Part shown: positions 22,832 to 39,409 of the stretch, piece after piece
Numbering within the stretch: the first letter of the stretch is position 1
Layout of the letters: each line of letters starts with the position of its first letter
Source: a bacterium
GTDB taxonomy: Bacteria; Verrucomicrobiota; Verrucomicrobiia; Limisphaerales; J093
Direction of reading: 5' to 3'
Length of the DNA: 64,000 nt
NCBI GenBank assembly: GCA_021780105.1
Contig: JAJXZJ010000032.1
Span: 3,615-67,614 of the forward strand
Translations under genes and position numbers: made by a program
Notes under the pieces: generated by a model
What the model saw: only the letters and a program-made list of their open reading frames with translations
Database searches by the model: none
What the model was told of the DNA's origin: nothing

Positions 22832-22877
22832 AATTTGATTGAGCCGCGCCGGGAGGGTGGTGTCTGATGAACGCATT

Positions 22878-24616: not shown

Positions 24617-24693
24617 ATCTCCGGCGTTGCGAGTTGACGGACGATTTGTTTGAATTCCCTCCAGATTAGGTTGGAATTACTGCCAGTCACAAG

Positions 24694-26091
24694 ATGTTGC
24701 GACGCCAAAAAGAGATTCGCACGCGAGTTCAGATGGTCCTGGACGCCCTGCTCTACGGGGTGGGGTTGTATCTCGCCCACGGAATACGCCGCCATTGGCA
24801 TTTGCCCTTCTTGAGCGGTCAGCATGAAATCCAGCCGTTTGAACTCTATGCCTGGTTGCTGGTCATTGTCATTCCAAGTGCGCCGTTGTTGTTGCACCTG
24901 AGCGGTTTTTACGAACGTCCCCTGTTGCCATCGTTGCGCGAGACTTCGTGGCGTTTGTTCCGCGCCTGCGTGTGGGCGGTGGTGGGGGTGATTCTGGTTT
25001 TGTGGTTGTTCCGCGTAAGCTCCGTGATTGCCCGGTCGGTGATCATTTACTTCGGTCTCATGAGCTACGTGCTGATCCTCCTCAAGGAGGAGTTGTTGCT
25101 GCGTTGGCGGCAGAGCAGTCTGGGGCGGCTGCAAAGTCAGAAGCGGTTGCTGTTGGTGGGCACGCGCGAGGACACGGCACGGTTGCAGGAGGAGTTGCAG
25201 AACGCCCAGGGCGACGACCTCAAGGTGGTGGCGCAGGTGGCGCTCGACAAGGAGCCGATCGAGCGGCTGATTCAACTCATGCATGAGCACTCCGCCAACG
25301 GCGTGATCCTCATTCCTCAGCACATCTACTTTGGCCAGATCGAACAGGCGATCGAGGTCTGCGAGCGGGAGGGTGTGGACGTCTGGTTGATCGCCGATTT
25401 CTTCAAGACGCAGCTTTCACGCACGCGGGTGGACGAGTTTTACGGCCGGCCAATGCTGGTGTTCAGCACCGGCCCCGAGAAGTCGTGGTCCGCGTTGCTG
25501 AAGCAGGTATTCGACTTCGTCGGGGCCTCCATTTTGCTGTTTCTCCTTGCCGTTCCCATGGTGTTGATTGCGGTGGCGATCCGGCTGTCGTCACCCGGGC
25601 CGGTGTTTTTCCGCCAGCAGCGCAGTGGTTTGAACGGGCAGCCGTTCACGATGCTCAAGTTTCGCTCCATGATCACCAACGCCGAGCAGCTCAGGCACGA
25701 GTTGGAAGCGTTGAACGAAATGTCCGGGCCGGTCTTCAAGGTCACGAATGATCCCCGCATCACCGGATTCGGCCGGTTCATGCGCAAATACAGCATTGAC
25801 GAGCTGCCCCAGCTCATCAACGTCTGGCGCGGTGAAATGAGCCTCGTCGGGCCGCGTCCGCTGCCGGTGGACGAGGTCAGGCGTTTCGATGATCCGGCCC
25901 ACCGGCGGCGGTTGAGCGTCCGTCCCGGGCTGACGTGTCTCTGGCAGATCAGCGGCCGGAACAACGTCAGGGATTTTCAGGAATGGGTCCGGCTGGACTT
26001 GGAATATATTGATCATTGGTCGCTTTGGCTGGACTTCAAGATTCTTCTGCGCACAATTCCTGCTGTCTTTACCGGCGCGGGTGCGAAGTGA
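24694..26091 (+). CDS. Polyprenyl-phosphate glycosylphosphotransferase (priming sugar transferase, WcaJ/WbaP-like)
   Basis: N-terminal TMs; [42 protein letters not shown]. Confidence 0.92.
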
Positions 26092-26153
26092 GTCGAATCG
26101 AAACTTCGGCATCCGGCGGAAAGCATTATGCTGACAAACCCGACGCTCATGTC

Positions 26154-27182
26154 ATGAACCGGAAACGGACACGCGGCCCATCGCCAGCGAAACCGCCGGT
26201 TTCCGTCGTGACCGGTGGCGCTGGCTTTCTCGGCTCGCATCTGGTGGATCTCCTCCTGGCGCGCGGCCATCACGTCGTTGCCTTGGACAATCTGGTGACC
26301 GGCTCGGTGGACAACATTGCCCACCACGCCGGCGATCCGAACTTTCGGTTCGTAAAGCAGGATGTTACCGAGTTCCTTTTCCTGGCCGGACCGGTGGATT
26401 TCGTCTGGCACTTCGCCTCGCCGGCCAGTCCGATAGATTACCTGGAACTGCCCATCCAGACGCTCAAAGTAGGCTCGTTGGGCACGCACAAGGCACTGGG
26501 CCTGGCCAAGCACAAGGGCGCGCGGTTTTTGTTGGCATCCACCTCGGAGGTTTACGGCGACCCGCTGGTGCATCCCCAACGGGAGGATTACTGGGGCAAC
26601 GTGAACCCGATCGGGCCGCGGGGCTGTTACGACGAGGCGAAACGCTTTGCCGAAGCGATGACGATGGCCTATCACAACGAGCACGGCCTGGAAACCCGCA
26701 TCATCCGGATTTTCAACACCTACGGGCCCCGCATGCGGCTTAACGACGGCCGTGTCGTGCCGTCTTTCATCGGGTCCGCGCTTCGTCACCAGCCGGTGAC
26801 GGTCTATGGCGATGGCAGCCAGACCCGCAGTTTTTGCTATTGCTCGGACCTGGTGGAAGGCGCGTATCGGTTGATGATGAGCGACGAGCATTTGCCGGTC
26901 AACATCGGCAACCCCACCGAGCTGACGGTGCTGGAATTTGCCCGGTCCGTCATCCGGGCCACCGGCTCGCGGAGCCGGATTGTCTTTCGTCCGCTGCCGC
27001 AGGACGATCCCAAACAACGCCGGCCGGATACCAGCCGGGCGGAACGACTTCTGGGATGGCGGCCGCAGGTGCCGCTGGAGCAGGGGTTGGAACGGACCAT
27101 CGCCTGGTTTCGGCCCGCGGCACCGGCTTCCGGTCGGGCGACGAACAAGCGGAAGGCCGCAGCCGGCATGAGCAAGACTTAG
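26154..27182 (+). CDS. UDP-glucuronate decarboxylase (UDP-xylose synthase) family SDR
   Basis: [60 protein letters not shown]. Confidence 0.9.
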
Positions 27183-27364: not shown

Positions 27365-29248
27365 ATGTTGGGTTCAAAGTCATTTTTGTGCATTGATTTC
27401 GGCGCGGGCAGCTTGAAGCTGGCCGAGTTCGACATCAACGAGGGCGGAACGCTGCGGCTCTTGAATTACGGCACCAAGGCCTTGGGATTGGCCGGCGCCC
27501 AGGATTCTGCCCGTGAAGGCGTCGTGTTGCGTGGTTTGCAGGAATTGATGGGGAGCAAGGCCTTCTCCGCCAAGACCTGCAATGTCTGCGCGCCCGGCTA
27601 CCACGTCTTCTCGAAATTCATCAAGCTTCCTCCCGTTGACTCCTCCAAGATCACGCAGATCATCCAATACGAAGCGCAACAAAACGTTCCGTTTCCTTTG
27701 GAAGAGGTGGTGTGGGACTACCAGATTCTCGGCACGCTGCCATCGGGCGAACTGGAAGTGCTCCTGGTGGCAATCAAATCGGACATCGTCGAGGGATTGT
27801 TCCGGGCGGCGGAGAGCGTCGGCCTGCGGTTGGACCTGGTGGACGCCTCGCCGGCCGCATTGTGCAACGCCTTCCGCTACAACTACGGCGATCTGGACGG
27901 ATGCTCCATGCTGCTGGACATCGGCGCCAAGACCAGCAACGTCCTGTTCTTCGAGAAGGACAAGGTGTTTTCGCGCAGCATCAACATCGGCGCCAACTCG
28001 ATCACGCAGGACTTCGCCGCAGAGGCGAAAATGCCGTTTGTCGAGGCGGAGAAATTCAAGCTGAGCGACGGCTTTGTCAGCTTGGGCGGCGCCTACGAGG
28101 AGCCGGACAACCCGAAACAGGCGGCCATTTCCAAGATTGCGCGCCAGGTGCTCACGCGGCTGCACATCCAGGTCAACCAGACCATCCAGTTCTTCCGCAG
28201 CCAGCAGGGCGGCTCCGCGCCACAACGGTTGTTCCTGGCCGGCGGGGCTTCGATCATGCCCTACACCGCGCAGTTTTTTGCGGAAAAACTGAACGTGCCG
28301 GTGGAATACTTCAATCCGTTCCGCAACATCCAGATTGATCCCGCCGTCAACTTGGAGGAGCTGGCGAAGGTGGCGCACGCTTTCGGCGAGGTGGTCGGCG
28401 TGGGACTGCGGTCGCCGGCACAATGCCCGGTGGAGTTGAACTTGATGCCGAAGAGCATCCTCAATCGCCAGCAGTTCAACCAGAAAAAGCCTTACTTCGT
28501 TGCCACGCTCGTCAGTCTCATCATCGTGGTGTTTGCGATCGGCTGGTTTTTCGACAAGCTCCGCGCGGAAAAACAGTCGACGATTGACGAGCGCCAGCCC
28601 AAATTGGACGAGTTGAAACGCAAGGCGGACGATCTCACCGCCGCGCTCCACCGACGCGATGACACCCGCAAGACGGTGGATCAATACACGGATTGGATCG
28701 GTGCCCGTTTCCAATGGATCGATCTCATCGGCGAGCTGCGCCGGGTGCTCGAACGCACCGAGGCGAACACCAGCCGGACCGGCATCCGCAGCGGCCTGTG
28801 GATTGAGCGGATGGCGGCGCAGAGCAACGAAGGTTCGGAGGAAGCCAAGGAGGAAGAGGCCGAGGCGCCGCGCCCCATGATGGACATCCGCATGATGATC
28901 CGTTACGGACTTATCAAGCTGCCGCCCGGGGCTCAGGTTGGCGCGCCGGGGGCGGCGGACGCGACGGCGGCGGCCGATACCGCCGCGGCCAAGCCCGCGA
29001 CCAGTCCAGCTTCCACCAACACCATCCAAGTCATCAACCTGACCTGCCGCGGGGTGAGTTGGAACAAGCTTGATCCTTCGGCGGATGACCGGCTGGCCAT
29101 CGAACTCAAGAACCAACTGGACGCCAGCCCTTATTTTGAACACGGCACCAACGGCACGGAGCTGGCGGGCCAGATGGAACAGGACGAGAGCACCGGAACG
29201 TTCAAGTTTGACGTCAAGCTGAAGCTCGCGAAGCCCATCAAGCTCTAG
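27365..29248 (+). CDS. pilM: Type IV pilus assembly protein PilM fused to a PilN-like TM/periplasmic part (Amuc_1101-like)
   Basis: Actin-like IDFGAGSLK, EAQQNVPFPLEEVVWDY, LLDIGAKT, LAGGAS; then PilN-like LNLMP + TM + coiled coil. Confidence 0.85.
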   Translation: MLGSKSFLCIDFGAGSLKLAEFDINEGGTLRLLNYGTKALGLAGAQDSAREGVVLRGLQELMGSKAFSAKTCNVCAPGYHVFSKFIKLPPVDSSKITQIIQYEAQQNVPFPLEEVVWDYQILGTLPSGELEVLLVAIKSDIVEGLFRAAESVGLRLDLVDASPAALCNAFRYNYGDLDGCSMLLDIGAKTSNVLFFEKDKVFSRSINIGANSITQDFAAEAKMPFVEAEKFKLSDGFVSLGGAYEEPDNPKQAAISKIARQVLTRLHIQVNQTIQFFRSQQGGSAPQRLFLAGGASIMPYTAQFFAEKLNVPVEYFNPFRNIQIDPAVNLEELAKVAHAFGEVVGVGLRSPAQCPVELNLMPKSILNRQQFNQKKPYFVATLVSLIIVVFAIGWFFDKLRAEKQSTIDERQPKLDELKRKADDLTAALHRRDDTRKTVDQYTDWIGARFQWIDLIGELRRVLERTEANTSRTGIRSGLWIERMAAQSNEGSEEAKEEEAEAPRPMMDIRMMIRYGLIKLPPGAQVGAPGAADATAAADTAAAKPATSPASTNTIQVINLTCRGVSWNKLDPSADDRLAIELKNQLDASPYFEHGTNGTELAGQMEQDESTGTFKFDVKLKLAKPIKL

Positions 29249-29252
29249 TGAT

Positions 29253-30353
29253 ATGGCCTGGCTTAAAAAGAATCTCTATCTGGTGATCGTTGGCGCGGTC
29301 GCGCTGGGCTTGCTCGGTCTCGGCGGCTATTTCCTCTACGCCCAGATTGATCAGGAACACCAGATCACCGACGCGTTGAAAGCCCAAACCGAGCAAATGG
29401 AGACGCTGGACAAGAAGGAACCCCAGCCGGGCAACGCCAAGGTCAATAACATCGAGGCCGCCAAGGACCAGGAAAAGGATCTGGAAGCCTTTCTGGTCAA
29501 GGCGCGCAAAGCCTTTGTGCCGGTGCCTCGTCCCACGAACATTGACAGCGGGCAGTTCAAGATTCTTCTCGAGAACACGGTGGACGAGTTGCACCACTCC
29601 GCCGCCAGTGCCGGCGTGAAATTGCCGCAAGACTATGCGTTTACCTTCGCGGCTGAAAAACCGCTGATGTCGGTGGAGGCCAAAACCGTGCAGCCGCTCA
29701 CGGACGCGCTGCTGACGATCCGGGCGATTTCCAAAGTTATTTTCAACGCCCGCGTGCTGGCGCTCGACAGCATCCGGCGTGTGTCCATCACGGCGCAGGA
29801 CACCCCCAGCCCCACACCGGGCCAGTCGGACTATTGGAGCAAGAAGCCGGAAACCAACGAATTGGCCATCGTCACGCCCTACGAGTTTACCTTTCATTGC
29901 TTCACCGCGGAATTGGCTGCCGTGCTGCAGGAATTGGCCACCAACCGGTATTGTTTTGTCGTCAAGAATGTCACGGTGGATACCGCGCCCTCCAGTGTGC
30001 TGGACACTAATGTGACCGCCAATGGCGAGGCACCCGGCGCCACTCCGGCCATGGACTCGCGATATTTGATGATGATGCGCTATGGCCGGCGGTATTTCCC
30101 AAACATGCCAGCCACGCCGCCGCCCGAAGCAATGTCTCCCAGCGGTCGTCCGCCGATCAAGCGGGGGGGCATGACGGTGGTGCTCGACGAAAAGCCATTC
30201 CGTGTCGTTCTCCGGGTTGACGCCGTGCGATTGCTTGACAAGGACGGTGGCAGGGCGGGGGCGTCCGCGAAACCGGCTCGCGCGGCCCGAGGAGGGCCAG
30301 CGCCCGGTGATCCCGCCAATCAACAACCCACCGCAGGCGATTCCAGCAGGTAG
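29253..30353 (+). CDS. PilO-like protein (Amuc_1100-like)
   Basis: N-terminal TM, coiled coil, position after pilM(N). Confidence 0.65.
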   Translation: MAWLKKNLYLVIVGAVALGLLGLGGYFLYAQIDQEHQITDALKAQTEQMETLDKKEPQPGNAKVNNIEAAKDQEKDLEAFLVKARKAFVPVPRPTNIDSGQFKILLENTVDELHHSAASAGVKLPQDYAFTFAAEKPLMSVEAKTVQPLTDALLTIRAISKVIFNARVLALDSIRRVSITAQDTPSPTPGQSDYWSKKPETNELAIVTPYEFTFHCFTAELAAVLQELATNRYCFVVKNVTVDTAPSSVLDTNVTANGEAPGATPAMDSRYLMMMRYGRRYFPNMPATPPPEAMSPSGRPPIKRGGMTVVLDEKPFRVVLRVDAVRLLDKDGGRAGASAKPARAARGGPAPGDPANQQPTAGDSSR

Positions 30354-30356
30354 CCC

Positions 30357-31166
30357 ATGGAGTTTCTAAAAAAGCATTACGAGAAGGTCCTGCTGAGTGT
30401 CGTGCTCGTGGGATTGGCGGTGGCCGCGGCCTTGTTGCCGATCAAGGTGGCGTCGGTGCGCAACACGCTGGAACAGGCCACGCGGCGTTATGAAACACGG
30501 AACATCAAGCCGCTGAAGCCGCTCGATCTCAGCACGAACGAAGCGGAACTGGCCCGCTTGGAGACCGGTGTGCCCATGCCCTTGGAGACGCATGGCCACC
30601 ATATTTTTAATCCCATCGAATGGGTGCAGAAGCCGGGGCCGGACAGGATTTTGATCCCGCGGGAAGACACGGGCACGAAAGCCCTCATCGTGACCAACAT
30701 CGAGCCGCTGCATACGACGATCGAATTTGAAGGATTACGGGATGCGGGTCCCAATCCGCGTTATACTTTCCGGGTGAAACGGGAAGCCGCGACAAACAAC
30801 ATTTTCTGGCATCCGTATCAACGGATCGCCGGCGTGGGTGACAAGTCAGACGCCTTCACGCTGAAAGAAGTCAAGGGGCCGAAAGAAGACCCGACCGAGG
30901 TCGTTTTGGAACTGTCAGACTCGAAACAGACCGTTAGCGTGAGCAAGGACAAGCCTTACGATGAAGTGGCCGGTTATGCGGCTGACCTCCGTTATGGGGT
31001 TGACAACAAGCTATTTCCCCATGTGCGTCAGGGGCAGAAAATTACCGTTGGTGGCGTGGCATACAATATCGTTGCCATCAGCCAGAGTGACGTTACACTT
31101 GAAGACAGCCAGACGAGAAAGCGAACAACGATTCATTGGGCCGCCGCGCCGCAACCAGCCAAGTAG
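30357..31166 (+). CDS. Pilus-system accessory protein (Amuc_1099/PilP-position)
   Basis: MEFLKKHYEKVLL N-terminal anchor; lies between the PilO-like gene and the secretin. Confidence 0.6.
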   Translation: MEFLKKHYEKVLLSVVLVGLAVAAALLPIKVASVRNTLEQATRRYETRNIKPLKPLDLSTNEAELARLETGVPMPLETHGHHIFNPIEWVQKPGPDRILIPREDTGTKALIVTNIEPLHTTIEFEGLRDAGPNPRYTFRVKREAATNNIFWHPYQRIAGVGDKSDAFTLKEVKGPKEDPTEVVLELSDSKQTVSVSKDKPYDEVAGYAADLRYGVDNKLFPHVRQGQKITVGGVAYNIVAISQSDVTLEDSQTRKRTTIHWAAAPQPAK

Positions 31167-31173
31167 CGATTTT

Positions 31174-33942
31174 ATGTCCTCCGTTTCAACCGTAGCCAAG
31201 ACGATGAGTCGATCCGTCCTAATCACCTTCAGCATGGCGTTATTCCTGGCGGTGGCCGCAACCACCGCCCACGCCCAAACCACCTCCAGCCAGGCGGCCG
31301 AAGAGGAAAATGTCCGCCGACAGGAGCAATCCATCGTGCTCCGGCGCACGCTTCAGGAAGCTCAGGCCGATCAAAAGGCTGGTGACTTGGGCAGCGCCGC
31401 CAAATCATACGAGCAGGCGTGGGCGTTGGTGCAAAGCATCGGCGATGCCGGTATCGAAAAGGAGCGCCAGGAAACCGTGACCGGCTTCTGCGAGGTGTAT
31501 CTGGCGCTGGCCAAGAAATCTTACGCCCGGCAGGAATACACCGAAGCCAAGGTTCAGTTGACCCGGGTTTTGAAAGTGGATCCGAAGAATCCCGAGGGTC
31601 AGAAAGAAATGGCCATGGTTGACAAGACGCTTGGCGATCTTCAAGGCCGGATGCCCGACAAGGAAACCCTTGCCCTCCTGCCAGATGTGCAGAAGCAACA
31701 CATCGCCACCGGCACCTTGGTGCAGGATGGCAAGCTGCTCTATGAAATGGGCAAGCTGGACGAGGCCCAGGCCAAGCTCAAGCAAGCGGTGAAGCAGGAA
31801 CCCAGCAACCAGGCAGCCTACTACTACCTGAAGCTGATTGAGGAAGCCCGGTACACGAAAGAGGCCAAAAAGCGGGAATACTTTGCCAAGGAAAAGCTGA
31901 TCGAGGTGGAGAATTCTTGGAATCCGCCCGTCAGTTTCGGGAATGTGACCAACGCGGCCAACCCCTTCGCCCGGACGAACTCCGTTTACACCGGCGAGGG
32001 ACGCCATGCCATCGAGGAGAAACTCAATCACATTATCCTTCAGGACGTGGAGTTCCCCGACATCGGGATGCCACTCAGCGAGGTGGTGAAGTTCTTGGAC
32101 AAGGAAGTGCGCTTGCGTGACCCCTCGCGCCAGGGAATCAATTTTCTTATCGCGCCGTGGGTGGACATTCAAACGCAAGCGGCTGGCACGATGACGGTGG
32201 ATCCAACGACGGGACAGCCGGTGAACACCCCGCCGCCGGAACCGTTTGACCTGCGCAACGACGTCCACATCCGGATCGAGCCGGCACTGCACAACATTCC
32301 GCTCAAGGATGTTCTCGATGCGATCACCAAGGTTGCGGACAAGCAGATCAAGTATTCGATCGAGGACTATGCGATCATTTTCTCCCGCAAGACGCCGGAC
32401 CAGCCGCAGTTGTTCACCCGGACTTACAAGGTGAATCCCAACACCTTTATTCAAGGGTTGGAAGGCGTGTCAGGGTTTGATTTCGAAGCGGCGATTAACA
32501 GCGTAACCGGAATGGGCATGGGCGGCGGTGCCATGGGCGGCGGCGGCATGATGGGCGGCGGCATGGGCGGCGGCATGGGCGGCGGCATGGGCGGCATGGG
32601 CGGCATGAGTTCCGGTGGGGCCATTGTTCCCAAAGTCTATGCTGCCGGCGGTGGCATGATGGGTGGCATGATGGGTGGCATGGGCGGCGGCATGGGCGGC
32701 GGCATGGGCGGCGGCATGATGGGCGGCGGCATGGGCGGCGGCATGGGCGGCGGCATGGGCGGCGGCATGGGTGGCGGCATGGGTGGCTTCGGGACGGGCG
32801 GTTTGACTGGTGTAACGACTTATACACAGATGTCCTACGTCAATCAATTGGTGCGAGATTACTTCAGTGCCGCAGGGGTGGACTTGGGTGGCACTAACAC
32901 GCTAGGCGGTGGCGGCTACGGTGCCGGTGGCATGGCAAGTCAGATGGGGGGCGGCGCAGGGTTTCAGAATGCGGCCGGCAAGGCGGTCTTCTGGAATGAT
33001 CGCACGGGTATTTTGTTGGTTCGTGCCACGCTGGATGACTTGGATATCATTGACAAGGCAATCCAAGCCCTCAACCAGACGCCGGATCAGGTCAGCATTG
33101 AGGCGAAGTTCGTTGAAATCGGCCAGGACGACGCCAAAGCGCTCGGATTTAATTGGTTTTTGGGTAACATGAACATGTTCGGCGGCAACGTGGGCGCCCA
33201 GGGCGGCACGGCACCGTCCTTCTCAGGTAATTCCACAGCGGCCAATCCTTACGGAACGTTCCCCGGGACATTCGGGACTCCTTCCGTGGCGCCAAATCCG
33301 CAAACGGACCAACTCCTGACCAGCGGTTTGCGCCAAAGCCAGGCGGGCAGCACCAGTATCCCTGCGGTGGGGACCATCACGGGAATCATGACCGATCCTC
33401 AGTTCCGCGTGGTGATCAACGCGTTGGAACAGCGTAGTGGCACTGATGTGTTGTCTGCGCCGAAGGTTACGACCGTGAGCGGTCGGCAGGCTCAGATTCA
33501 AGTCCTCGAAATGCAGAACATTGTGGTCTATAACAACGCCGGCGCGGTTGGCGCTGGCGTCGGCACGGTGGGCACCGGGACGACAACGGGCGGCGCGGTT
33601 ACCAGTGATCGCAACGTCAAGTCGGGATTCCAGTGGGTGGATTCGGAATCGGTTCTGGATAAAGTGGCGGGATTGCCGATCACCCGTTGGTATTACACGA
33701 ACGACGTGGCCACGCCCCATATTGGTCCCATGGCGCAGGACTTCAAGGCGGCTTTCAACGTGGGCGACAGCGACAAGCACATTGCCATCGTGGACGAAGG
33801 CGGCGTGGCGCTGGCGGCCATTCAAGGTTTGAACCAGAAGCTCGAACAACAGATCAAGGCCAAGGATGTGGAAATTCAGGATCTCCAGCAAAGTGTGGCC
33901 GAGTTGAAGAAGCTGGTGCAATCACTTGCAGAGAAGAAATAG
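31174..33942 (+). CDS. pilQ: Secretin (PilQ/GspD-like) N-terminal part fused to a C-terminal peptidase S74/ICA autocleaving chaperone domain
   Basis: Signal peptide, TPR-like helices, N domains, QVSIEAKFVEI, DVLSAPKVTTVSGRQAQI; then TSDRNVK...HIGPMAQDF...GVALAAIQGL + coiled coil (33601-33942). Confidence 0.88.
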   Translation: MSSVSTVAKTMSRSVLITFSMALFLAVAATTAHAQTTSSQAAEEENVRRQEQSIVLRRTLQEAQADQKAGDLGSAAKSYEQAWALVQSIGDAGIEKERQETVTGFCEVYLALAKKSYARQEYTEAKVQLTRVLKVDPKNPEGQKEMAMVDKTLGDLQGRMPDKETLALLPDVQKQHIATGTLVQDGKLLYEMGKLDEAQAKLKQAVKQEPSNQAAYYYLKLIEEARYTKEAKKREYFAKEKLIEVENSWNPPVSFGNVTNAANPFARTNSVYTGEGRHAIEEKLNHIILQDVEFPDIGMPLSEVVKFLDKEVRLRDPSRQGINFLIAPWVDIQTQAAGTMTVDPTTGQPVNTPPPEPFDLRNDVHIRIEPALHNIPLKDVLDAITKVADKQIKYSIEDYAIIFSRKTPDQPQLFTRTYKVNPNTFIQGLEGVSGFDFEAAINSVTGMGMGGGAMGGGGMMGGGMGGGMGGGMGGMGGMSSGGAIVPKVYAAGGGMMGGMMGGMGGGMGGGMGGGMMGGGMGGGMGGGMGGGMGGGMGGFGTGGLTGVTTYTQMSYVNQLVRDYFSAAGVDLGGTNTLGGGGYGAGGMASQMGGGAGFQNAAGKAVFWNDRTGILLVRATLDDLDIIDKAIQALNQTPDQVSIEAKFVEIGQDDAKALGFNWFLGNMNMFGGNVGAQGGTAPSFSGNSTAANPYGTFPGTFGTPSVAPNPQTDQLLTSGLRQSQAGSTSIPAVGTITGIMTDPQFRVVINALEQRSGTDVLSAPKVTTVSGRQAQIQVLEMQNIVVYNNAGAVGAGVGTVGTGTTTGGAVTSDRNVKSGFQWVDSESVLDKVAGLPITRWYYTNDVATPHIGPMAQDFKAAFNVGDSDKHIAIVDEGGVALAAIQGLNQKLEQQIKAKDVEIQDLQQSVAELKKLVQSLAEKK
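32512..32787 (+). repeat. Gly/Met low-complexity tandem repeat (ggcggcggcatg)n, GGGM units, in the secretin
   Basis: Two arrays of 12-bp units separated by SSGGAIVPKVYAA. Confidence 0.9.
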
Positions 33943-34080
33943 GGGAATGACGATACGACGGTTGTGATCCGAGTGGTTTCCGGCCGGCAAGCAAGACAAA
34001 ACAAACCATTTGATATGAAACGATTAGCGTTCTTTGGAGTCCTCGTAGTGGTCTTAGGTCTGGCGGGATCCGCGTTCGCC
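33601..34080 (+). other. In-frame insertion cassette splitting the secretin (S74 domain + stop + leader + signal peptide)
   Basis: 480 bp; removing it joins ...TTTGGAV to QVVNQAANT... in the same reading frame (exact boundary uncertain by 1-2 codons). Confidence 0.75.
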
Positions 34081-34596
34081 CAGGTGGTCAACCAGGCGGC
34101 CAACACGCAGATCATCGCGCCAACAACTGCGATGATACCGCTGGGACCGGAACTGGACGTGATTCCCAACGTTTCGGCCGACGGTTATACGATTCAGATG
34201 AATCTGATTCCGACGTTGACCGAGTTCCTCGGCTATGACAATCCGGGGTCCTTTCAAACACAGGTTGGCCAGCTCCAAGCGCCGCTGCCGCTGCCACATT
34301 TTCGCGTCCGCCAGGTGACCACGAGCGCCATCGTGTGGGACGGCCAGACCGTCGTGCTGGGCGGCCTGATCTCGGAGGAGGTGCAAAAGACCAAGGACAA
34401 AGTGCCGATGCTCGGCGACCTTCCACTCGTCGGCCGCCTATTCCGCAGCGAAACCTCGTTCACTTCCAAAAAGAATTTGGTGATCTTTGTCACGCCGACG
34501 CTGATTGACCCCGCTGGCAACCGGATTCATACCGAGGACAATCTGCCTTACGACCCCAACAAGATTCCAGCGCAAACGCCGTTTGCGCCACAGTGA
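34015..34596 (+). CDS. Secretin C-terminal part with its own Sec signal peptide
   Basis: A-rich leader; MKRLAFFGVLVVVLGLAGSAFA|Q; then GPELDVIPNVSADG, DGQTVVLGGLI, KVPMLGDLPLVGRLFRS, NLVIFVTP. Confidence 0.88.
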   Translation: MKRLAFFGVLVVVLGLAGSAFAQVVNQAANTQIIAPTTAMIPLGPELDVIPNVSADGYTIQMNLIPTLTEFLGYDNPGSFQTQVGQLQAPLPLPHFRVRQVTTSAIVWDGQTVVLGGLISEEVQKTKDKVPMLGDLPLVGRLFRSETSFTSKKNLVIFVTPTLIDPAGNRIHTEDNLPYDPNKIPAQTPFAPQ

Positions 34597-34631
34597 TCCG
34601 GGTCCGTCGGGTGCAACATAACTGTCTGGAC

Positions 34632-34656
34632 AAGGACGGGTTTCGGCCCGTCCTTT
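34632..34656 (+). terminator. Terminator ending the pil/secretin operon
   Basis: Stem aaggacgggt/gcccgtcctt with UUCG loop, T-rich tail. Confidence 0.7.
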
Positions 34657-34707
34657 ACGCTTTTTGCGGAAGGATTCCTGCGAGGTCGCCTTAAAGTTGA
34701 ATGGCTG

Positions 34708-35688
34708 ATGGAAACCAGCGAGAACAGATCAGAGACGCGCCCGCTCCTGACCACCGCAGGAGAGGCGCCGCAACTGTTGTTGGTGGACGGCCACGCCTAC
34801 GCCTACCGGGCGTTTCACGCCATTCGCAGTTTGACCTCACCAACCGGCCAACCTACAAACGCCATCTTTGGGTTCGTGAAAACGATCTCCCGGCTTCGTG
34901 CTGATTTACAGCCAACCTATTGCGCGGTCGTCTGGGACGGTGGCCTGGCGGCGGAGCGGGTTGCCCTGTTGCCCGGCTACAAGGCCACCAGACCGCCGAT
35001 GCCATCGGCGCTGGCGAGCCAGCTCGACGAGATCGTGGCCTGGGTCGAGGCGAGCGGCGTGGTTTCGCTGTGTCGCGAGGGGGTTGAGGCGGACGATTGG
35101 ATTGCCACCCTGGCGATTAAAGCGGCCGAAACGGGCGCCAAAGCGGTGATCGCCAGCAGCGACAAGGATTTCATGCAGTTGGTTTCGCCGTCCGTGGGTC
35201 TGGTGAATCCAGCCGAGAAGCACAGCCGGCGCTGGACCGCTGCCGAGGTGCAGGAGAAGACCGGCGTGCTGCCGGAGCAGGTAGTGGACTGGCTGAGCAT
35301 GGTTGGCGACAGCGTGGATGACATCCCGGGGGTGCCGGGAGTCGGATCGAAAACGGCGGCTGCATTGCTGCGCCAGTTTGGCTCTTGCGAGGCAGTGCTG
35401 GCGCGCGTGGACAAGGTGCAGCCAGAGAGGCTGCGGGCAGGACTGCGAGCTGCTGCCGACGCCCTGCACCGAAACCGGCAGTTGATCACGCTCCGAACCG
35501 ATGTAGGCGGTGGAATCACGCTGGACGCCTTGCTAATCCGGCCGCCGGATACGCCCCGGTTGCGCGATTTGTTTACCCGCTGGGGGTTTCGTTCCCTGGT
35601 GAGCGAACTGGACCTGGCAGGGGCCACGCAAACGGACTTTTTTGAGGATCGGACCGGCCGGACCAAGTTATTTTCCAGCACTGATTGA
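34708..35688 (+). CDS. Stand-alone 5'-3' exonuclease/flap endonuclease (Pol I N-terminal domain; Xni/ExoIX-like)
   Basis: LLVDG, YRAFHA, YKATR, GVEADD, SSDKD, GDSVDDIPGVPGVGSKTA (H3TH); no polymerase domain. Confidence 0.88.
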   Translation: METSENRSETRPLLTTAGEAPQLLLVDGHAYAYRAFHAIRSLTSPTGQPTNAIFGFVKTISRLRADLQPTYCAVVWDGGLAAERVALLPGYKATRPPMPSALASQLDEIVAWVEASGVVSLCREGVEADDWIATLAIKAAETGAKAVIASSDKDFMQLVSPSVGLVNPAEKHSRRWTAAEVQEKTGVLPEQVVDWLSMVGDSVDDIPGVPGVGSKTAAALLRQFGSCEAVLARVDKVQPERLRAGLRAAADALHRNRQLITLRTDVGGGITLDALLIRPPDTPRLRDLFTRWGFRSLVSELDLAGATQTDFFEDRTGRTKLFSSTD

Positions 35689-35891
35689 TATCAACCTCAA
35701 AACATGGCAAACGTATTGCTACAAACGCTTCAAGATTCCGTGCCGGTGACCGGTTGCGCAAGGCACCCAGGCGCCAGAGCCGGCTGGCCGGAGAACCGAC
35801 GAATAAGTTGGCAATGCCGTCGAGCACGGCGCAATTTTTCGGAAGAAAACGTGGACAAAGAAAGGGTGCTTTGCTAGAAAGCCGCAATCTT

Positions 35892-37865
35892 ATGTCATTC
35901 ATGTTGAGCGCCGGTAGGCGGCTGGTTCTACTGGGCCTTGCCTCGCTTGCCCCGGCGGGTGCCTTGGCTCAATCTGCCTTTACGCCCCAAGGAGGCGAAT
36001 ACTCCCTGACGCTGGGTATGTTGGGAGATCAAACGCATCCTTACGTCGGCCTGAGCAGCAACGGCGGAGGCTACGTGGTCTGGCAGGACAACGCCACTGA
36101 CGGCGGCGGCCTCGGCATCAGCGCCCGCGCCTTGAACAATTATCTTTCCCCCGTAGTTGCGCAGACCTTCCGGGTCAATCAACAAGGTGCCGGCGATCAG
36201 GAACAACCCGTGGTCCAGATGCTGCCTGACGGCAGCGCCGTGTTCGTGTGGCAGGGAGGGGCGCAAGGAAGTCAGCAGATTCTCGCCCGGTTCATTGGAC
36301 CCGATGGCCAGTTCACCACGGGTGACATTCCGGTAAACACCACCACGACGGGGCAGCATATGAACCCGCAAGTGGCTGTGTTGAAAGACGGTTCGCTGAT
36401 GATCGTTTGGGCGAGCGATCAACTCGATCGGCAGGTGACCGGGAGCGACCCGCTGGCGGGAGCGTTCGATCCGATTACACACGCACCCTTGGTGCATCAC
36501 CTCGACCGGCCCTATTTCGATGTGTTTGGTCAACGGATGTCCGCCACCGGCCAGAAATTTGGCGGCGAATTTCGCGTCAACGAAACCACGCTTTTCAACC
36601 AGCGCACGCCGGCCGTGGCCGGCACGGATGACGGCGATTTCCTGATTCTGTGGGTGAGCGAGAATCAACGGTTCGACAATAGCGTGGACGTGTATGGCCG
36701 CCGTTATGGCTCCTCCGGAAATCCCCGCGCCGACGAGTTCCTCATCAACACCTCGTCGAATGTCTGCGCGAACCCGGCGGTGATTGGTGGACCGAGTGGC
36801 ACTGCGTTGGTCGCTTGGGACGAGTTCAATCTGGGCAATACTTCGGACGGCTGGAACGTGCTCGCCTGCCAGGTCGGCACGGACGGAATCTTGCTCAGCC
36901 CACCGCAGGTGATCAACACGCGCAATCCCGGCAAACGCTTTGCTCCCCAACTGGCCCGCGCCGGCAACGATTTCCTTGCTGTCTGGACGAGTGACTGGCA
37001 GGACCTGTCGCGCGAAGGCGTCTATGGTCGTTTCCTGAAGCCGGACGGCTCACCCAACAGCGACGAATTCCGCGTGAACACCACCACCATCAGCCAGCAG
37101 ATTCAGCCGGCGGTGGCCAGCAACGGTAGCAACGGGTTTTTGACGGTCTGGTCCACGTTTACGGGCTTGGACTATGGTTTCGAACTTGCGGGTCAGCGTT
37201 ACAGTTCAGACAAAACGCTCGTTCCGCCGGCCGCACCTTTCGTCTCGGCACTCGATTCTTACTCCCTGCTCGTGGGTTGGTCCGCGCTTGCTGGTTACAC
37301 CAACACCGTCACCTACCTGGTCTATCAGGATGGTTCAACCAGCGCCCTGCGGACCACGAACAACTACCAGATCGTTCGTGGACTGATGCCGGCCAGCAGC
37401 CACTCCTTCCAGTTGGCCTACGATTTGGGAAATGGCTCGGTGTCGCCGATTTCCACGGCCACCACCAACACGACTTGGGGTGCGGATTTGAACTACGACG
37501 GTCTGCCGGACGACTGGCAGGCGAAGTATTGGGGAACCGATTCCAGCAAATGGCCGGCGCCCACGGCGGACAGTGACGGCGACGGGGTTTCCAACCTGAG
37601 CGAGTTTCTGGCGGGCACCGATCCGACCGATCCGAACAGCGTGTTGAAGACCAGCATCACACCGACAAAACTGGGCTTGTTGGTGAGCTGGAATTCCGTG
37701 CCGGGGCAGGTGTATCAGGTTCAATCCTCACCTGATTTGAAGACGTGGACGAATCTGGGCAGCCCGCGATTTGCCCCTGACAGTTCGTTCTCGGTGCTGG
37801 TTCCGATGCCAGCGGCATCCTCGGCGACCGCCTTTTACTCGTATCGCGTCATCCGAATTCGTTGA
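35892..37865 (+). CDS. Secreted repeat (beta-propeller-like) protein with FN3-like segment, Ca-binding repeats and C-terminal domain
   Basis: Repeated FRVN...Q..P.VA units; DSDGDGVSNLSEFLAGTDP; ends FYSYRVIRIR. Confidence 0.7.
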   Translation: MSFMLSAGRRLVLLGLASLAPAGALAQSAFTPQGGEYSLTLGMLGDQTHPYVGLSSNGGGYVVWQDNATDGGGLGISARALNNYLSPVVAQTFRVNQQGAGDQEQPVVQMLPDGSAVFVWQGGAQGSQQILARFIGPDGQFTTGDIPVNTTTTGQHMNPQVAVLKDGSLMIVWASDQLDRQVTGSDPLAGAFDPITHAPLVHHLDRPYFDVFGQRMSATGQKFGGEFRVNETTLFNQRTPAVAGTDDGDFLILWVSENQRFDNSVDVYGRRYGSSGNPRADEFLINTSSNVCANPAVIGGPSGTALVAWDEFNLGNTSDGWNVLACQVGTDGILLSPPQVINTRNPGKRFAPQLARAGNDFLAVWTSDWQDLSREGVYGRFLKPDGSPNSDEFRVNTTTISQQIQPAVASNGSNGFLTVWSTFTGLDYGFELAGQRYSSDKTLVPPAAPFVSALDSYSLLVGWSALAGYTNTVTYLVYQDGSTSALRTTNNYQIVRGLMPASSHSFQLAYDLGNGSVSPISTATTNTTWGADLNYDGLPDDWQAKYWGTDSSKWPAPTADSDGDGVSNLSEFLAGTDPTDPNSVLKTSITPTKLGLLVSWNSVPGQVYQVQSSPDLKTWTNLGSPRFAPDSSFSVLVPMPAASSATAFYSYRVIRIR

Positions 37866-37868
37866 CCT

Positions 37869-39365
37869 ATGCTGCGCTTGTTGAACAGAATTTGCCTCAG
37901 CCTGCTGATCATTGGAGCAGTTGAGAAAGCCTCGGCGTTTGCCTTGTTTGGTCCGCTTGACACTTGGCAGACGGCCAATCTTGGCTACGATGGCAACGGT
38001 GGTCCGCAGAACTTGGGCGAGGAGTACCGTATCAACACGCCGACCTTGACTTACGGTTTTGATTCGGCGTTTCTCAATTACTTCGGCACGAACGGGGTCG
38101 CGGATATTGACCAGGCGATGAAGTTGTTGAACGACCTGCCTTCATTCCGCAGCATGACGGCGGACCTGAACGAATACCCGAACGACACGCGCCGCATCAA
38201 CTATCAGGCTAACGCGCTCCAGCTATACAGCTTGAAGAGCTATGCGTTGAGTGCGGTTCTTGGGGAAATGGGTCTGGCTGGTGCCGATCGTTACGTGTGG
38301 TGTATTCGCAATATCTACACGGACCCGGCCAACGTCCTCTGGTACACGATCATCAAGCGTAACTTCGATCCCGTGACTTGGGAATACAGTTCCTACGTCA
38401 ATGGTGCCATGTACACCTACCAGATTGCGCCCTATGATGCTACACCCGATTGGGACGCGATGGAGTATGAAACAGACCCCAATATGCCGAGCGACACAGC
38501 GGTATCGTCGTTGGCTGATCCTCCGCCGAGGCCTGTCGCCACTGGTTCGTATATCACTTACTCCTACGGAATGTTCTATTCGGGATTGACCCGCGATGAC
38601 GTGGGTGGTTTGCGCTATCTCTATGATTCGGCAAACTGGAACGTGGAAACCCTGCCCACGAATGCGGTTGCGGCTGGGTTGGGTTTGCAGACCGGCATCA
38701 TCGGCGGCGGCACGACAGGTGGCAACCCGTGGGGACAGCCTCCGGGTGGCACTACGACAAACACCACGGGGACCAACACGGTGACCGTGACCAACGTCGT
38801 GGTGGGTACAGCCACGCGACCTGGCGTGGACCACATTACCTTTGTCCGGGTTAATTACGACTCCGCCTTTGGCGTGTGGGTGCCGCTGACGAATGTCTGG
38901 ACGGATACCTATATCACGAACTATGCCAGCAAGACGCAAACCTTGCAGCGCACGCTGACGCAACCCGACATCCTGTTCACTGCGGCTGACATGGGCGTGG
39001 ATCCAGTTGGACAGCCGATTCTATGGGGAATTACCGAGTCATTCATCAACAACAGTGCTTTGAATGCCGTTGGGACAACCGGTGGCACGCTCAATGGCCC
39101 CGGTCTGGTGGCCATGCCGGCGATAATCAGCTTCAACAAGGTCGGGCCATGGTGGTATCAGACGGCGGGCGGAAATGGTTTCGTGTTACAGGGCTTCTTG
39201 TGGGGGACTTTTGATGGCACCACCAACGCGCCAATCGTTTATCCGAGCGGAATCAGCATCAAGGCGCTGGAACAAGCCATTATTACCGGTCAAGCCGGGG
39301 CCGGACAGAATCCGTATTTGAACCCGGCGGGTTCAACCGCGAGTACCGGTCAAACCGGTCCGTAG
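37869..39365 (+). CDS. Secreted hypothetical protein, matrixin-like but lacking HEXXH
   Basis: Signal peptide; LKSYALSAVLGEMGL and LTRDDVGGLRYLY resemble matrixin helices. Confidence 0.6.
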   Translation: MLRLLNRICLSLLIIGAVEKASAFALFGPLDTWQTANLGYDGNGGPQNLGEEYRINTPTLTYGFDSAFLNYFGTNGVADIDQAMKLLNDLPSFRSMTADLNEYPNDTRRINYQANALQLYSLKSYALSAVLGEMGLAGADRYVWCIRNIYTDPANVLWYTIIKRNFDPVTWEYSSYVNGAMYTYQIAPYDATPDWDAMEYETDPNMPSDTAVSSLADPPPRPVATGSYITYSYGMFYSGLTRDDVGGLRYLYDSANWNVETLPTNAVAAGLGLQTGIIGGGTTGGNPWGQPPGGTTTNTTGTNTVTVTNVVVGTATRPGVDHITFVRVNYDSAFGVWVPLTNVWTDTYITNYASKTQTLQRTLTQPDILFTAADMGVDPVGQPILWGITESFINNSALNAVGTTGGTLNGPGLVAMPAIISFNKVGPWWYQTAGGNGFVLQGFLWGTFDGTTNAPIVYPSGISIKALEQAIITGQAGAGQNPYLNPAGSTASTGQTGP

Positions 39366-39409
39366 GAAAGGGTTAGGGGGGACATTTGCCAACTTACGTT
39401 CGATTCCTT

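What the first reader, a model, noticed from the sequence alone, without database searches (positions are those of the whole stretch)
31174..34596. Split secretin: N-half capped by an S74 autocleaving chaperone, C-half with its own signal peptide
SEEN: the PilQ/GspD-like ORF reads normally to DVLSAPKVTTVSGRQAQIQV...GGAV. At 33601 it switches to TSDRNVK...HIGPMAQDFKAAF...GVALAAIQGL + coiled coil and stops (TAG 33940-42). A second ORF (ATG 34015, A-rich leader) begins with a textbook signal peptide (AFA|Q) and resumes the secretin domain exactly where it was interrupted (..PLGPELDVIPNVSADG..KVPMLGDLP..). A terminator follows only the second ORF. KNOWN: S-D-x-x-x-K is the Ser-Lys dyad of peptidase S74/ICA domains (phage K1F endosialidase, MYRF), which trimerise, chaperone folding and cleave themselves off just before the Ser. 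The interrupted segment corresponds to the first gate hairpin of secretins (GspD 'GQDVPV...ERKKVG'). INFERENCE: autocleavage leaves ...GGAVT and signal peptidase leaves QVVNQ..., giving a two-chain secretin nicked at the gate tip with almost no scar. The ICA might act as an assembly checkpoint or transient plug, or the nicked gate might widen the channel. I know of no described secretin with this architecture. Intact motifs in all parts argue against simple decay.
Basis: partly seen in the sequence, partly recalled or inferred. Interest (0 to 1): 0.93.

Follow-up and report, generated by a model that had tools for sequence, protein, structure and literature searches.

The report
Two-gene pilus secretin with self-cleaving cap
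The outer-membrane pore protein of a pilus-like machine in a Verrucomicrobiota bacterium is encoded as two separately exported pieces cut inside its gate loop, and in a few lineages, including this one, the first piece also carries a phage-type self-cleaving chaperone domain at its end.

Summary
ORF1 (31174/31204-33942) is an Amuc_1098/PilQ-type secretin that stops being secretin at T810. It continues as Peptidase_S74 plus a coiled coil and ends at TAG. ORF2 (34015-34596) has its own signal peptide and the rest of the secretin domain (Pfam Secretin 1-41 in ORF1, 51-169 in ORF2).

It is neither decay nor an assembly artefact. The same split, at the same Gly/Thr-rich loop, is in every locus I read with both halves visible from 24 other genomes of the same family. 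It is also in genomes of six further families of the order, while other families carry an intact gene. Both halves and the S74 module are under purifying selection (dN/dS about 0.07-0.11 against a congener).

The main correction is that S74 is not part of the split as such. 32 split loci lack it, and their N-half simply ends in the loop. The S74 cap with a downstream C-half ORF was confirmed in 5 genomes of at least three lineages, and 12 protein clusters carry N-half plus S74. The Ser/Lys dyad is invariant. Cleavage would leave an N-half that ends in the same loop as in cap-less relatives.

Split secretin genes are already described for rhizobial T3SS. A split within the gate hairpin of a pilus-type secretin, and an S74 fused to a secretin, turned up in none of my literature searches.

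The parts
27365..29248 (+). PilM-like gene (627 aa), first gene of the cluster
   Evidence: Pfam PilM_2 E 5.3e-31. NCBIfam Amuc_1101_fam E 3.5e-144, below its curated cut-off. It is the only PilM_2 match above the cut-off in the genome.
29253..30353 (+). Amuc_1100-like pilus-associated protein (366 aa)
   Evidence: NCBIfam Amuc_1100_fam E 2.6e-19, covering 1-325 of 326 profile positions, below the curated cut-off. No Pfam family.
30357..31166 (+). 269-aa protein of no known family, between the Amuc_1100-like gene and the secretin
   Evidence: No family above threshold in Pfam or NCBIfam.
31174..33942 (+). Secretin N-half precursor ORF (922 aa from ATG 31174; likelier start M11 at 31204), stop TAG at 33940-33942
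   Evidence: M11 is nearly invariant in the alignment with 11 relatives.
31204..31275 (+). Signal peptide of the N-half (MSRSVLITFSMALFLAVAATTAHA|Q), read from the sequence
   Evidence: Sequence reading. The same type of N-terminus is in P0001. No signal-peptide predictor was available.
33421..33543 (+). First part of the secretin domain (Pfam Secretin positions 1-41). It contains L778, which aligns with the gate hinge G453 of V. cholerae GspD
   Evidence: PMC7545093.
33532..33603 (+). Gly/Thr-rich tip of gate hairpin 1, ending at T810, the predicted new C-terminus after S74 cleavage
   Evidence: Intact relatives carry a continuous Gly-rich loop here. Cap-less split relatives end here.
33604..33801 (+). 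Peptidase_S74 (intramolecular chaperone autocleavage) core, with S811 and K816 as the dyad
   Evidence: Pfam PF13884 at aa 811-861. Dyad invariant. Weak profile match to the MyRF ICA chain 7dc3 aligns SDxxxK and W839/Y841 with its HYRYK segment (E 0.052). The Atlas structural neighbours of aa 791-922 are S74 clusters.
33802..33939 (+). C-terminal coiled-coil-like tail of the S74 module (aa 877-922)
   Evidence: Hydrophobic 3-4 spacing read from the sequence. 96% identical between G000 and G001. Profile hits to GCN4-type trimeric coiled coils.
33943..34014 (+). 72-nt spacer, A-rich before the ATG, with no terminator and no stable fold
34015..34080 (+). Signal peptide of the C-half (MKRLAFFGVLVVVLGLAGSAFA|Q)
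   Evidence: Sequence reading. A signal-peptide-like start followed by a mature N-terminus beginning QV is in all 27 cap-less split loci, and in L081, L082 and L125.
34081..34596 (+). Mature secretin C-half (171 aa) with stop: second strand of gate hairpin 1, gate hairpin 2, outer barrel strands and C-terminal tail
   Evidence: Pfam Secretin positions 51-169 of 169, E 2.8e-29. 27-sequence alignment with 69% mean column identity. Matches solved GspD and PilQ chains.
34632..34665 (+). Terminator-like hairpin with T-rich tail after ORF2
   Evidence: 10-pair stem, then TACGCTTTTT.

Best explanation
This is the outer-membrane secretin of an Akkermansia-type (Amuc_1098-1101) pilus-like machine, and it is made as two polypeptides.

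Both are exported by their own Sec signal peptides. The N-half carries the TPR region, a Gly-rich linker, an N-domain and the first strands of the secretin domain up to the rising strand of gate hairpin 1. The 171-residue C-half starts with the descending strand of that hairpin and supplies the rest of the barrel. The cut lies in a Gly/Thr-rich, presumably flexible hairpin tip, so the two chains can complement each other into a normal protomer whose gate tip is nicked (inferred, not shown).

This gene fission is old and is maintained across at least seven GTDB families. In this genus and a few other lineages the N-half also ends in a Peptidase_S74 intramolecular-chaperone domain with a coiled coil. 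By analogy with endosialidase, phage T5 fibre, Bdellovibrio fibres and MyRF, this domain would trimerise and cut itself off before S811 (inferred). That leaves ...GGAVT, an end in the same loop as in cap-less relatives.

The cap is therefore a self-removing add-on. It is either a transient folding or oligomerisation aid for the N-half, or a passenger tolerated because it deletes itself.
For: 1. Complementary halves. Pfam Secretin positions 1-41 are in ORF1 and 51-169 in ORF2. Aligned with 12 intact relatives, the two halves tile the domain, and the break falls in a Gly-rich loop that the intact proteins carry unbroken.

2. Conservation of the split. ORF2-like genes were found in 30 of 32 sampled genomes of the family. 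I read loci from 26 of these genomes. 24 are split without S74, G001 is split with S74, and G018 shows only the C-half at a contig end. Three genomes of families f18, f4 and f27 are also split without S74, which gives 27 cap-less split loci. Five more split loci come from f77 and f86.
   - Ten orthologues in ten other families are intact, and 24 of the 30 loci are intact.
   - Across the 27 C-halves, mean column identity is 69% and 61 columns are invariant.
   - 2765 clusters of stand-alone C-half-sized proteins have E <= 1e-20.

3. Selection, G000 against G001 (NG86, dS about 1). dN/dS is 0.067 for the N part (230 codons), 0.106 for S74 plus coiled coil (112 codons) and 0.083 for the mature C-half (170 codons).

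4. Not an assembly artefact.
   - G001, G095, G159 and the named MAG locus L125 show the same order: N-half, S74, coiled coil, stop, short spacer, signal peptide, C-half.
   - In two runs, Logan contigs cover 33000-33818 and 33795-34700 with no differences.

5. S74 identity. PF13884 scores above its cut-off. S811 and K816 are invariant in 20 of 20 and 12 of 12 sequences. MyRF cleaves between P586 and S587 by an S587/K592 dyad equivalent to endoNF S911/K916, and only as a trimer driven by the C-terminal coiled coil (PMC8326128, abstract and passages). Cellular bacterial S74 fibres also self-process (PMC10769870, passages).

6. No substitute secretin.
   - This is the only cluster in the genome with a PilM match above the cut-off.
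   - The four other secretin genes are different proteins. The nearest paralogue carries a BlaR1-like N-terminus.

7. Operon reading. No + strand terminator-like site lies between 27000 and 34632.
Against: - Nothing shows that either protein is made, that S811 is cleaved, or that the halves bind.
- The gate mapping rests on low-scoring local HMM alignments (domain scores about 5-10 bits inside strong whole-protein hits) plus numbering taken from the literature.
- S74 cleavage in known cases needs a trimer. Solved pilus secretin entries list about 12-15 chains per ring (6w6m has 14), so the trimer does not fit every ring symmetry.
- The segment upstream of S811 is a Gly/Thr loop, not the triple beta-helix that ICA domains usually chaperone.
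- Purifying selection on S74 does not prove that it is useful. Once fused, any mutation that blocks cleavage could poison the secretin, so the module could be kept merely because losing its function is harmful.
- dS is close to saturation (0.8-1.7), so the ratios are approximate.
- G001's contig starts inside the N-half, so only 342 codons of it could be compared.
Confidence: 0.7

Rival explanations
1. The S74 cap is a working assembly device, not a passenger. Trimerisation-dependent cleavage would time or license pairing of the N-half with the C-half. It could keep the aggregation-prone half-barrel soluble, nucleate oligomers, or block the channel until assembly is complete.
For: - Purifying selection on the module (dN/dS 0.106) with a coiled coil 96% identical between the two species.
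- The cap recurs on secretin N-halves in at least three lineages, and on a GspD-type N-module, P0039.
- In the module tree the g1 modules sit with adhesin modules behind a 97% SH-aLRT branch, apart from the other secretin-linked modules, which hints at two separate gains at the same site.
- MyRF shows cleavage gated by trimerisation (PMC8326128).
Against: - 32 split loci do without the cap, so it is dispensable for a two-chain secretin.
- The AU test does not reject a single origin of all secretin-linked modules (p 0.179), so recurrence is not proven.
- Selection can be explained by the harm of an uncleavable tail.
Confidence: 0.35
2. The S74 cap is a neutral or 'addictive' passenger. A module from one of the many S74-capped fibre or adhesin genes of these bacteria became fused to the free C-terminus of an already split N-half. 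It persists because it removes itself, and is kept intact only because loss of cleavage would be harmful.
For: - Cap-less relatives are the majority.
- The free C-terminus in a flexible loop is a permissive fusion site.
- This module is 71-75% identical to adhesin-type modules but 51-65% identical to the other Amuc_1098-type secretin-linked ones (70% to P0039).
- S74-capped genes are numerous and often tandem in relatives.
- GC3 of the module (0.705) equals that of its flanks, so it is not a fresh import.
Against: - Maintained in two species at dS about 1.
- Present in several deep lineages.
- A precise deletion would be an easy escape, yet has not happened in them.
Confidence: 0.35
3. The locus is a broken gene or a mis-assembly: a secretin pseudogene interrupted by foreign DNA, with function taken over by another secretin.
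For: - The genome has four other secretin genes.
- No single Logan contig spans 33795-33818, the conserved S74 core.
- No RNA evidence was obtainable.
Against: - dN/dS is 0.07-0.11 on all three parts.
- The same break point and a conserved signal peptide occur in 32 cap-less and 4 other capped loci of at least seven families.
- Each of the two Logan contigs by itself links S74 sequence to a secretin half, in two runs.
- N stop and C start lie in the same frame in only 12 of the 27 cap-less loci, so readthrough is not the rule.
- The other secretins are different families, or fused to a BlaR1-like domain, and none of them lies beside a PilM match above the cut-off.
Confidence: 0.03
4. The two products do not rebuild one barrel. 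The C-half forms a minimal pore on its own, and the N-half is a separate periplasmic TPR scaffold.
For: The C-half holds most of the secretin domain (positions 51-169 of 169) and the conserved C-terminal block that aligns with GspD and PilQ.
Against: - The N-half keeps the first secretin strands, highly conserved up to the break (SGRQAQ is invariant in 26 of 26 sequences).
- The two genes are adjacent and in the same order in every locus read.
- The C-half begins exactly with the partner strand of gate hairpin 1.
Confidence: 0.07

Closest known systems
Amuc_1098 family / PilQ-type type IV pilus secretins (Akkermansia Amuc_1098-1101 cluster; solved PilQ 6W6M, 6VE2; GspD 5WQ8)
   Same: HMM matches over both halves. 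The gene neighbourhood holds Amuc_1101-like PilM and an Amuc_1100-like protein. It has an N-terminal signal peptide and TPR region, and a Gly-rich gate loop shared with intact relatives of the same order.
   Different: It is encoded by two ORFs, with a second signal peptide in the middle of the secretin domain. The N-half carries a C-terminal S74 domain. Scores are below the curated whole-protein cut-offs because each ORF is only part of the family model.
Split secretin genes of rhizobial-type T3SS (RhcC1/NolW + RhcC2; HrcIIC1/HrcIIC2 of P. syringae)
   Same: A secretin is encoded as separate N-terminal and C-terminal ORFs and kept that way across a clade. The functional significance is unknown there too (PMC3574062, PMC3973906; passages read).
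   Different: Those are T3SS secretins. Their two genes are separated by other genes or lie in different parts of the cluster, and no S74 is mentioned in the passages I read. Where their break lies relative to the barrel I could not determine: their supplementary alignment is closed and I held no RhcC sequence. Here the genes are adjacent and co-oriented, and the break is inside gate hairpin 1.
[quoted passage not shown]
   Same: A C-terminal module that starts with S-D-x-x-x-K and has an aromatic pair aligned with MyRF Y615/Y617, followed by a coiled coil. The known members trimerise and cut before the Ser (PMC8326128, PMC10769870).
   Different: The known clients are trimeric beta-helical fibres or a transcription factor. 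Here the client is a fragment of a 12-15-meric beta-barrel channel, and the upstream segment is a Gly/Thr loop. Cleavage and trimerisation were not tested here.

Membership tests
Secretin (Pfam PF00263) / NCBIfam Amuc_1098_fam | Complete C-terminal secretin domain | tested here: met
   Met only by the two ORFs together. Profile positions 1-41 are in ORF1 (E 3.3e-4) and 51-169 in ORF2 (E 2.8e-29). Amuc_1098_fam positions 5-380 are in ORF1 and 643-804 in ORF2. The halves tile against intact relatives.
Secretin (Pfam PF00263) / NCBIfam Amuc_1098_fam | Single polypeptide that reaches the family's curated whole-protein score | tested here: not met
   241.5 and 131.6 bits against a cut-off of 750. 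There are two ORFs separated by a stop and 72 nt.
Secretin (Pfam PF00263) / NCBIfam Amuc_1098_fam | Neighbourhood of pilus-assembly genes (PilM-like, Amuc_1100-like) | tested here: met
   Amuc_1101_fam E 3.5e-144 and Amuc_1100_fam E 2.6e-19 directly upstream. PilM_2 E 5.3e-31.
Secretin (Pfam PF00263) / NCBIfam Amuc_1098_fam | Forms a gated multimeric outer-membrane channel | not testable with these tools
Peptidase S74 (PF13884) ICA domain | HMM match above the gathering score | tested here: met
   37.1 bits against 22, profile positions 1-53 of 58, aa 811-861. It is the only such match in the genome.
Peptidase S74 (PF13884) ICA domain | Ser-Lys catalytic dyad, Ser at the domain's first residue and Lys five residues later | tested here: met
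   S811 and K816 are invariant in 20 of 20 modules and 12 of 12 secretin-linked proteins. They align with the A(S587)...K592 segment of MyRF chain 7dc3, a weak hit with E 0.052. The dyad is defined in PMC8326128.
Peptidase S74 (PF13884) ICA domain | C-terminal trimerising coiled coil | tested here: inconclusive
   A heptad-like tail at aa 877-922, with profile hits to trimeric GCN4 variants at E 0.07-0.2. The oligomeric state could not be modelled.
Peptidase S74 (PF13884) ICA domain | Autocatalytic cleavage before the Ser | not testable with these tools
   Needs protein chemistry.
RhcC1/RhcC2-type split secretin | N- and C-terminal parts of one secretin encoded by two ORFs, conserved in a clade | tested here: met
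RhcC1/RhcC2-type split secretin | Belongs to a T3SS (Rhc) gene cluster, with the two genes apart | tested here: not met
   The cluster is the PilM/Amuc_1100 type and the genes are adjacent. It is an analogue, not a member.

The most novel reading that the evidence does not exclude
The gene fission itself was created in one step, by insertion of a junction cassette from a tandem array of S74-capped fibre genes into the flexible gate loop. The cassette would carry the S74-coiled-coil end of one gene, a short spacer, and the signal peptide of the next. Self-cleavage on one side and signal peptidase on the other made the insertion nearly scarless and therefore viable. Most descendants later deleted the S74 part, while a few kept or re-acquired it as a trimerisation-gated assembly timer for a secretin whose gate is naturally nicked.

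Such junctions do exist. P0002 reads S74, coiled coil, then a signal-peptide-like segment in one frame, and tandem S74 genes are common in relatives.
Probability: 0.15. Interest if true: 0.9.

Novelty: new variant of a known kind. Interest (0 to 1): 0.72.

Why it matters
Secretins are the gated outer-membrane portals of type II and III secretion, type IV pili, competence and filamentous phage export. How the gate opens and how the giant ring assembles are still open questions.

- A natural secretin whose first gate hairpin is cut at its tip, conserved over a whole order-level radiation, is a ready-made experiment. It shows that the hairpin tip need not be covalently closed, and it offers a two-chain system for studying barrel complementation, gate dynamics and pilotin-independent assembly.
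- The S74 cap extends the client range of phage-type intramolecular chaperone proteases from trimeric fibres to a beta-barrel channel fragment.
- The cap also gives a plausible route by which a gene can be split, or extended, without leaving a scar in the mature protein.
- For annotation, about 190-aa 'type II and III secretion system proteins' in Verrucomicrobiota should be read as halves of a two-gene secretin, not as fragments.

Tried and rejected
- Pseudogene or readthrough. Rejected by dN/dS and by the lack of a fixed frame relation between the N stop and the C start (same frame in 12 of 27 cap-less loci).
- Intragenomic donor of the insert. The 521-nt junction stretch and PF13884 each occur once in G000, and G001 also has one match.
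- Recent import. No GC3 anomaly.
- Single-sequence PDB search with the module found only designed helical repeats. The profile search found MyRF only weakly.
- Expression. No RNA holder was listed. The contigs laid say nothing about expression.
- Origins. The module tree suggests two origins of secretin-linked S74, but the AU test does not reject one (p 0.179; I gave it 53 of 126 rows: every third 'other' row, eight named neighbours, two identical SEC rows dropped, and P0002, P0003 and P0099 left out as long branches). The C-domain tree shows two split clades, but one clade is not rejected (p 0.149). Three loci (L106-L108) dropped out of that tree because my motif filter missed them.
- RhcC2 comparison. 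A protein search of plasmids with the C-half gave no annotated rhcC2 among the 60 of 1128 records listed. The NGR234 pNGR234b hit I opened was an intact 512-aa CpaC-type secretin, so the position of the rhizobial split stays unknown. The alignment in the supplement of PMC3574062 could not be seen.
- P0039's locus was not found in genome contigs.
- The representative search listed, among its best 150, only three entries that reach the S74 end of the profile: P0018, P0289 and P0291. This is no census.
- The Atlas gave no feature hit, only structural neighbours that are S74 clusters.
- Literature. 'secretin' + 'Peptidase_S74' found 0 papers. 'split secretin' found 2, both on T3SS. 'secretin' + 'intramolecular chaperone' found 50 papers; the 10 listed look unrelated by title and abstract start. 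'Amuc_1098' + 'secretin' found 3 papers, which I saw only in the search listing.

Full report
**What is there.** From codon 811 (33604) it reads SDRNVK..., a Peptidase_S74 domain and a heptad-like tail, and it stops at TAG 33940-33942. Seventy-two bases later, ATG 34015 opens a 193-codon ORF. Its first 22 residues look like a Sec signal peptide (..SAFA|QVVNQ) and the rest is secretin.
- Pfam places Secretin profile positions 1-41 in ORF1 (aa 750-790) and 51-169 in ORF2, with Peptidase_S74 at aa 811-861 (37.1 bits, cut-off 22).
- NCBIfam's Amuc_1098 family model (type IV pilus outer membrane protein) matches ORF1 with its positions 5-380 and ORF2 with 643-804.
- The three genes upstream are an Amuc_1101-type PilM-like protein, an Amuc_1100-like protein and a 269-aa protein of no family.
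- The only terminator-like site on this strand between 27000 and 35000 follows ORF2. The spacer has no stable fold.

**The split is real and old.** Searching 60 relatives with ORF2 gave stand-alone frames of about 200 aa, at 66-83% identity, in 30 of 32 genomes of the same GTDB family. Most other families of the order had frames of about 900-1000 aa. I fetched 40 loci and read the junctions.
- Twenty-seven loci are split at the same place with no S74: 24 genomes of family f1, plus one each of f18, f4 and f27.
- In these, the N-half runs ...SGRQAQIQ.., then a Gly/Thr loop, then a stop (19 of 27 end in Q).
- An ORF follows 25-110 nt later, with a signal-peptide-like start and a mature N-terminus beginning QV, mostly QV[VI][NQ].
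- One f1 locus (G018) shows only the C-half, at a contig end.
- Ten orthologues from ten other families are intact. Two further intact genes (L078, L079) are paralogues.

A class-wide sample added five more split loci without S74 (families f77 and f86) and 24 intact ones among 30 loci read. Aligned with 12 intact proteins, the two halves tile the domain, and the break falls inside a Gly-rich loop that the intact proteins carry unbroken. The 27 C-halves have 69% mean column identity. The public protein collection holds 2765 clusters of this size class at E <= 1e-20, some named 'type II and III secretion system protein' from Limisphaerales or Verrucomicrobiae MAGs.

**Selection and assembly.** Against the congeneric genome G001, dN/dS (NG86) is 0.067 for the N part, 0.106 for S74 plus coiled coil, and 0.083 for the mature C-half, with dS near 1. 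The signal peptide is freer (0.58 over 22 codons). In two runs, Logan contigs cover 33000-33818 and 33795-34700 without a difference. They break only in the S74 core, which many genes in those samples share. Each contig by itself ties S74 sequence to a secretin half. Four other genomes show the same capped arrangement (next section). Decay and chimerism are therefore excluded.

**Where S74 occurs.** Within family f1 only the window's genus has the cap (G000 and G001).
- An order-wide sample of 401 genomes found it in two genomes of family f64, G095 and G159. Each has a signal-peptide-bearing C-half ORF and the same 5'-3' exonuclease gene downstream.
- The large protein search returned 12 clusters of Amuc_1098-type N-halves ending in S74 plus coiled coil, 829-924 aa long, at 49-79% identity over the 183-aa query region (sequences read).
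- The locus of one of them, L125 from a named uncultured Verrucomicrobiota MAG, again has the C-half ORF, 31 nt after the stop.
- A further protein, P0039, has a GspD N0 domain, two Secretin_N domains and S74, but no barrel part.
- The other hits are fibre- or adhesin-like proteins with a C-terminal S74. Relatives carry up to six S74 matches per genome, often in tandem. The window's genome has only this one.

*One origin or two?* The module tree puts the g1 modules inside a well-supported group of adhesin modules, and the other 13 secretin-linked modules plus P0039 in a group of their own. Identities agree: 71-75% to adhesin modules against 51-65% to the other Amuc_1098-type ones. However, an AU test on a 53-row subset does not reject one clade (p 0.179). 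The C-domain tree shows two split clades (f64+f27+f77, and f1+f18+f4+f86), and again a single origin is not rejected (p 0.149). I therefore state only that the split is older and wider than the cap, and that the cap was gained or lost several times.

**Is it a working S74?** S811 and K816 are invariant in 20 of 20 modules from relatives. S811-D812-R813-N814 and K816 are invariant in 12 of 12 secretin-linked proteins, as are W839 and Y841. A profile of the module hits the MyRF ICA chain 7dc3 weakly (E 0.052). That alignment places SDxxxK on the A(S587)DLRAK592 segment and W839/Y841 on the HYRYK segment.

From PMC8326128 (abstract and passages):
- MyRF is cut between P586 and S587.
- S587 and K592 equal endoNF S911 and K916.
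- Y615 and Y617 sit at the cutting site.
- Cleavage needs the trimer, which the C-terminal coiled coil drives.

PMC10769870 (passages) shows classical S74 self-processing in cellular Bdellovibrio fibres. The Atlas's own model of this protein has S74 clusters as the structural neighbours of aa 791-922. Cleavage itself is inferred.

**Where the cut lies in the fold.** In the profile alignment to V. cholerae GspD (5WQ8/5WQ9)...AQIQV[L778] aligns with ...ASFIV[G453]. The 5WQ9 chain carries A at that position. PMC7545093 (passages) states three things:
- G453 is the proposed gate hinge, and it corresponds to G439 of VcPilQ.
- S448 and S453 lie in the proximal gate hairpin.
- Two hairpins form the gate.

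The alignment to 6W6M puts Q776 on residue 437, which is consistent. T810 is 32 residues past the hinge position, in the Gly/Thr-rich tip. The C-half starts with about 20 residues leading into the conserved GP.LDV strand. These local alignments are weak, and no model could be built, so this step is inference.

**How it most likely works.** Both chains are exported, and the halves complement each other into a protomer with a nicked, flexible gate tip. In capped lineages the S74 trimer cuts itself off and leaves ...GGAVT, an end equivalent to that of cap-less relatives. Whether the cap helps (solubility, oligomer nucleation, timing) or is merely tolerated cannot be decided here. Purifying selection is expected under both readings, because an uncleavable tail at the gate would probably be harmful. 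A trimer also does not fit every ring symmetry: solved pilus secretin entries list about 12-15 chains per ring.

**What is known, and verdict.** Split secretin genes are described for rhizobial-type T3SS, with unknown significance. I rate this a new variant of a known kind. It is well supported as a conserved two-gene secretin, with an unusual self-cleaving cap whose role is open.

Noticed in passing
G000:C16 (L079:5483-8812): The nearest paralogue of the split secretin is an intact 1110-aa frame. Its N-terminal part matches the BlaR1-family sensor model (NF000326, E 1.1e-16, aa 257-400) and its C-terminal part matches Amuc_1098/GspD secretin models. This is a BlaR1-like/secretin fusion. Relatives have similar frames of 1000-1566 aa.
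   Followed up: partly
P0039 (protein; locus not found): A 691-aa protein with a GspD N0 domain, two Secretin_N domains and a C-terminal S74 plus coiled coil, but no secretin barrel. It may be a second kind of split secretin capped by S74. Its downstream gene could not be seen.
   Followed up: partly
P0002 (protein); tandem S74 hits in G056:C31, G007:C3, G002:C14: In P0002 one frame runs from an S74 plus coiled coil straight into a signal-peptide-like segment of a following fibre-like part. Relatives carry tandem arrays of S74-capped genes. 'S74 end / signal peptide start' junctions therefore exist as potential cassettes.
   Followed up: no
window 32480-32850: A long Gly/Met-rich low-complexity tract (GMGGG repeats) lies inside the N-half. 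Relatives have Gly/Tyr- or Gly/Ser-rich tracts at the same place. On the opposite strand and in other frames it produces long spurious ORFs.
   Followed up: no
window 20912-27182: Upstream of the pilus-like cluster lie an ABC_export-like protein, an exosortase (EpsH), DUF3485, a sugar transferase (Bac_transf) and an NAD-dependent epimerase/dehydratase. This looks like an exopolysaccharide/PEP-CTERM-type sorting cluster.
   Followed up: no
window 35685-42544; L031:2247-3554; L125:8256-10154: Large proteins with no Pfam family lie downstream (726, 498 and 1052 aa). A homologue of the 726-aa protein also lies downstream of the secretin C-half in L031 (G003, directly) and L125 (directly). In the window the 5'-3' exonuclease gene lies between them.
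   Followed up: no
L047 (G025) N-half region: The N-half of this family member has stops or a frameshift about 200 codons before its end (error; odd N-terminal reading). This may be a sequencing error or a broken copy.
   Followed up: no
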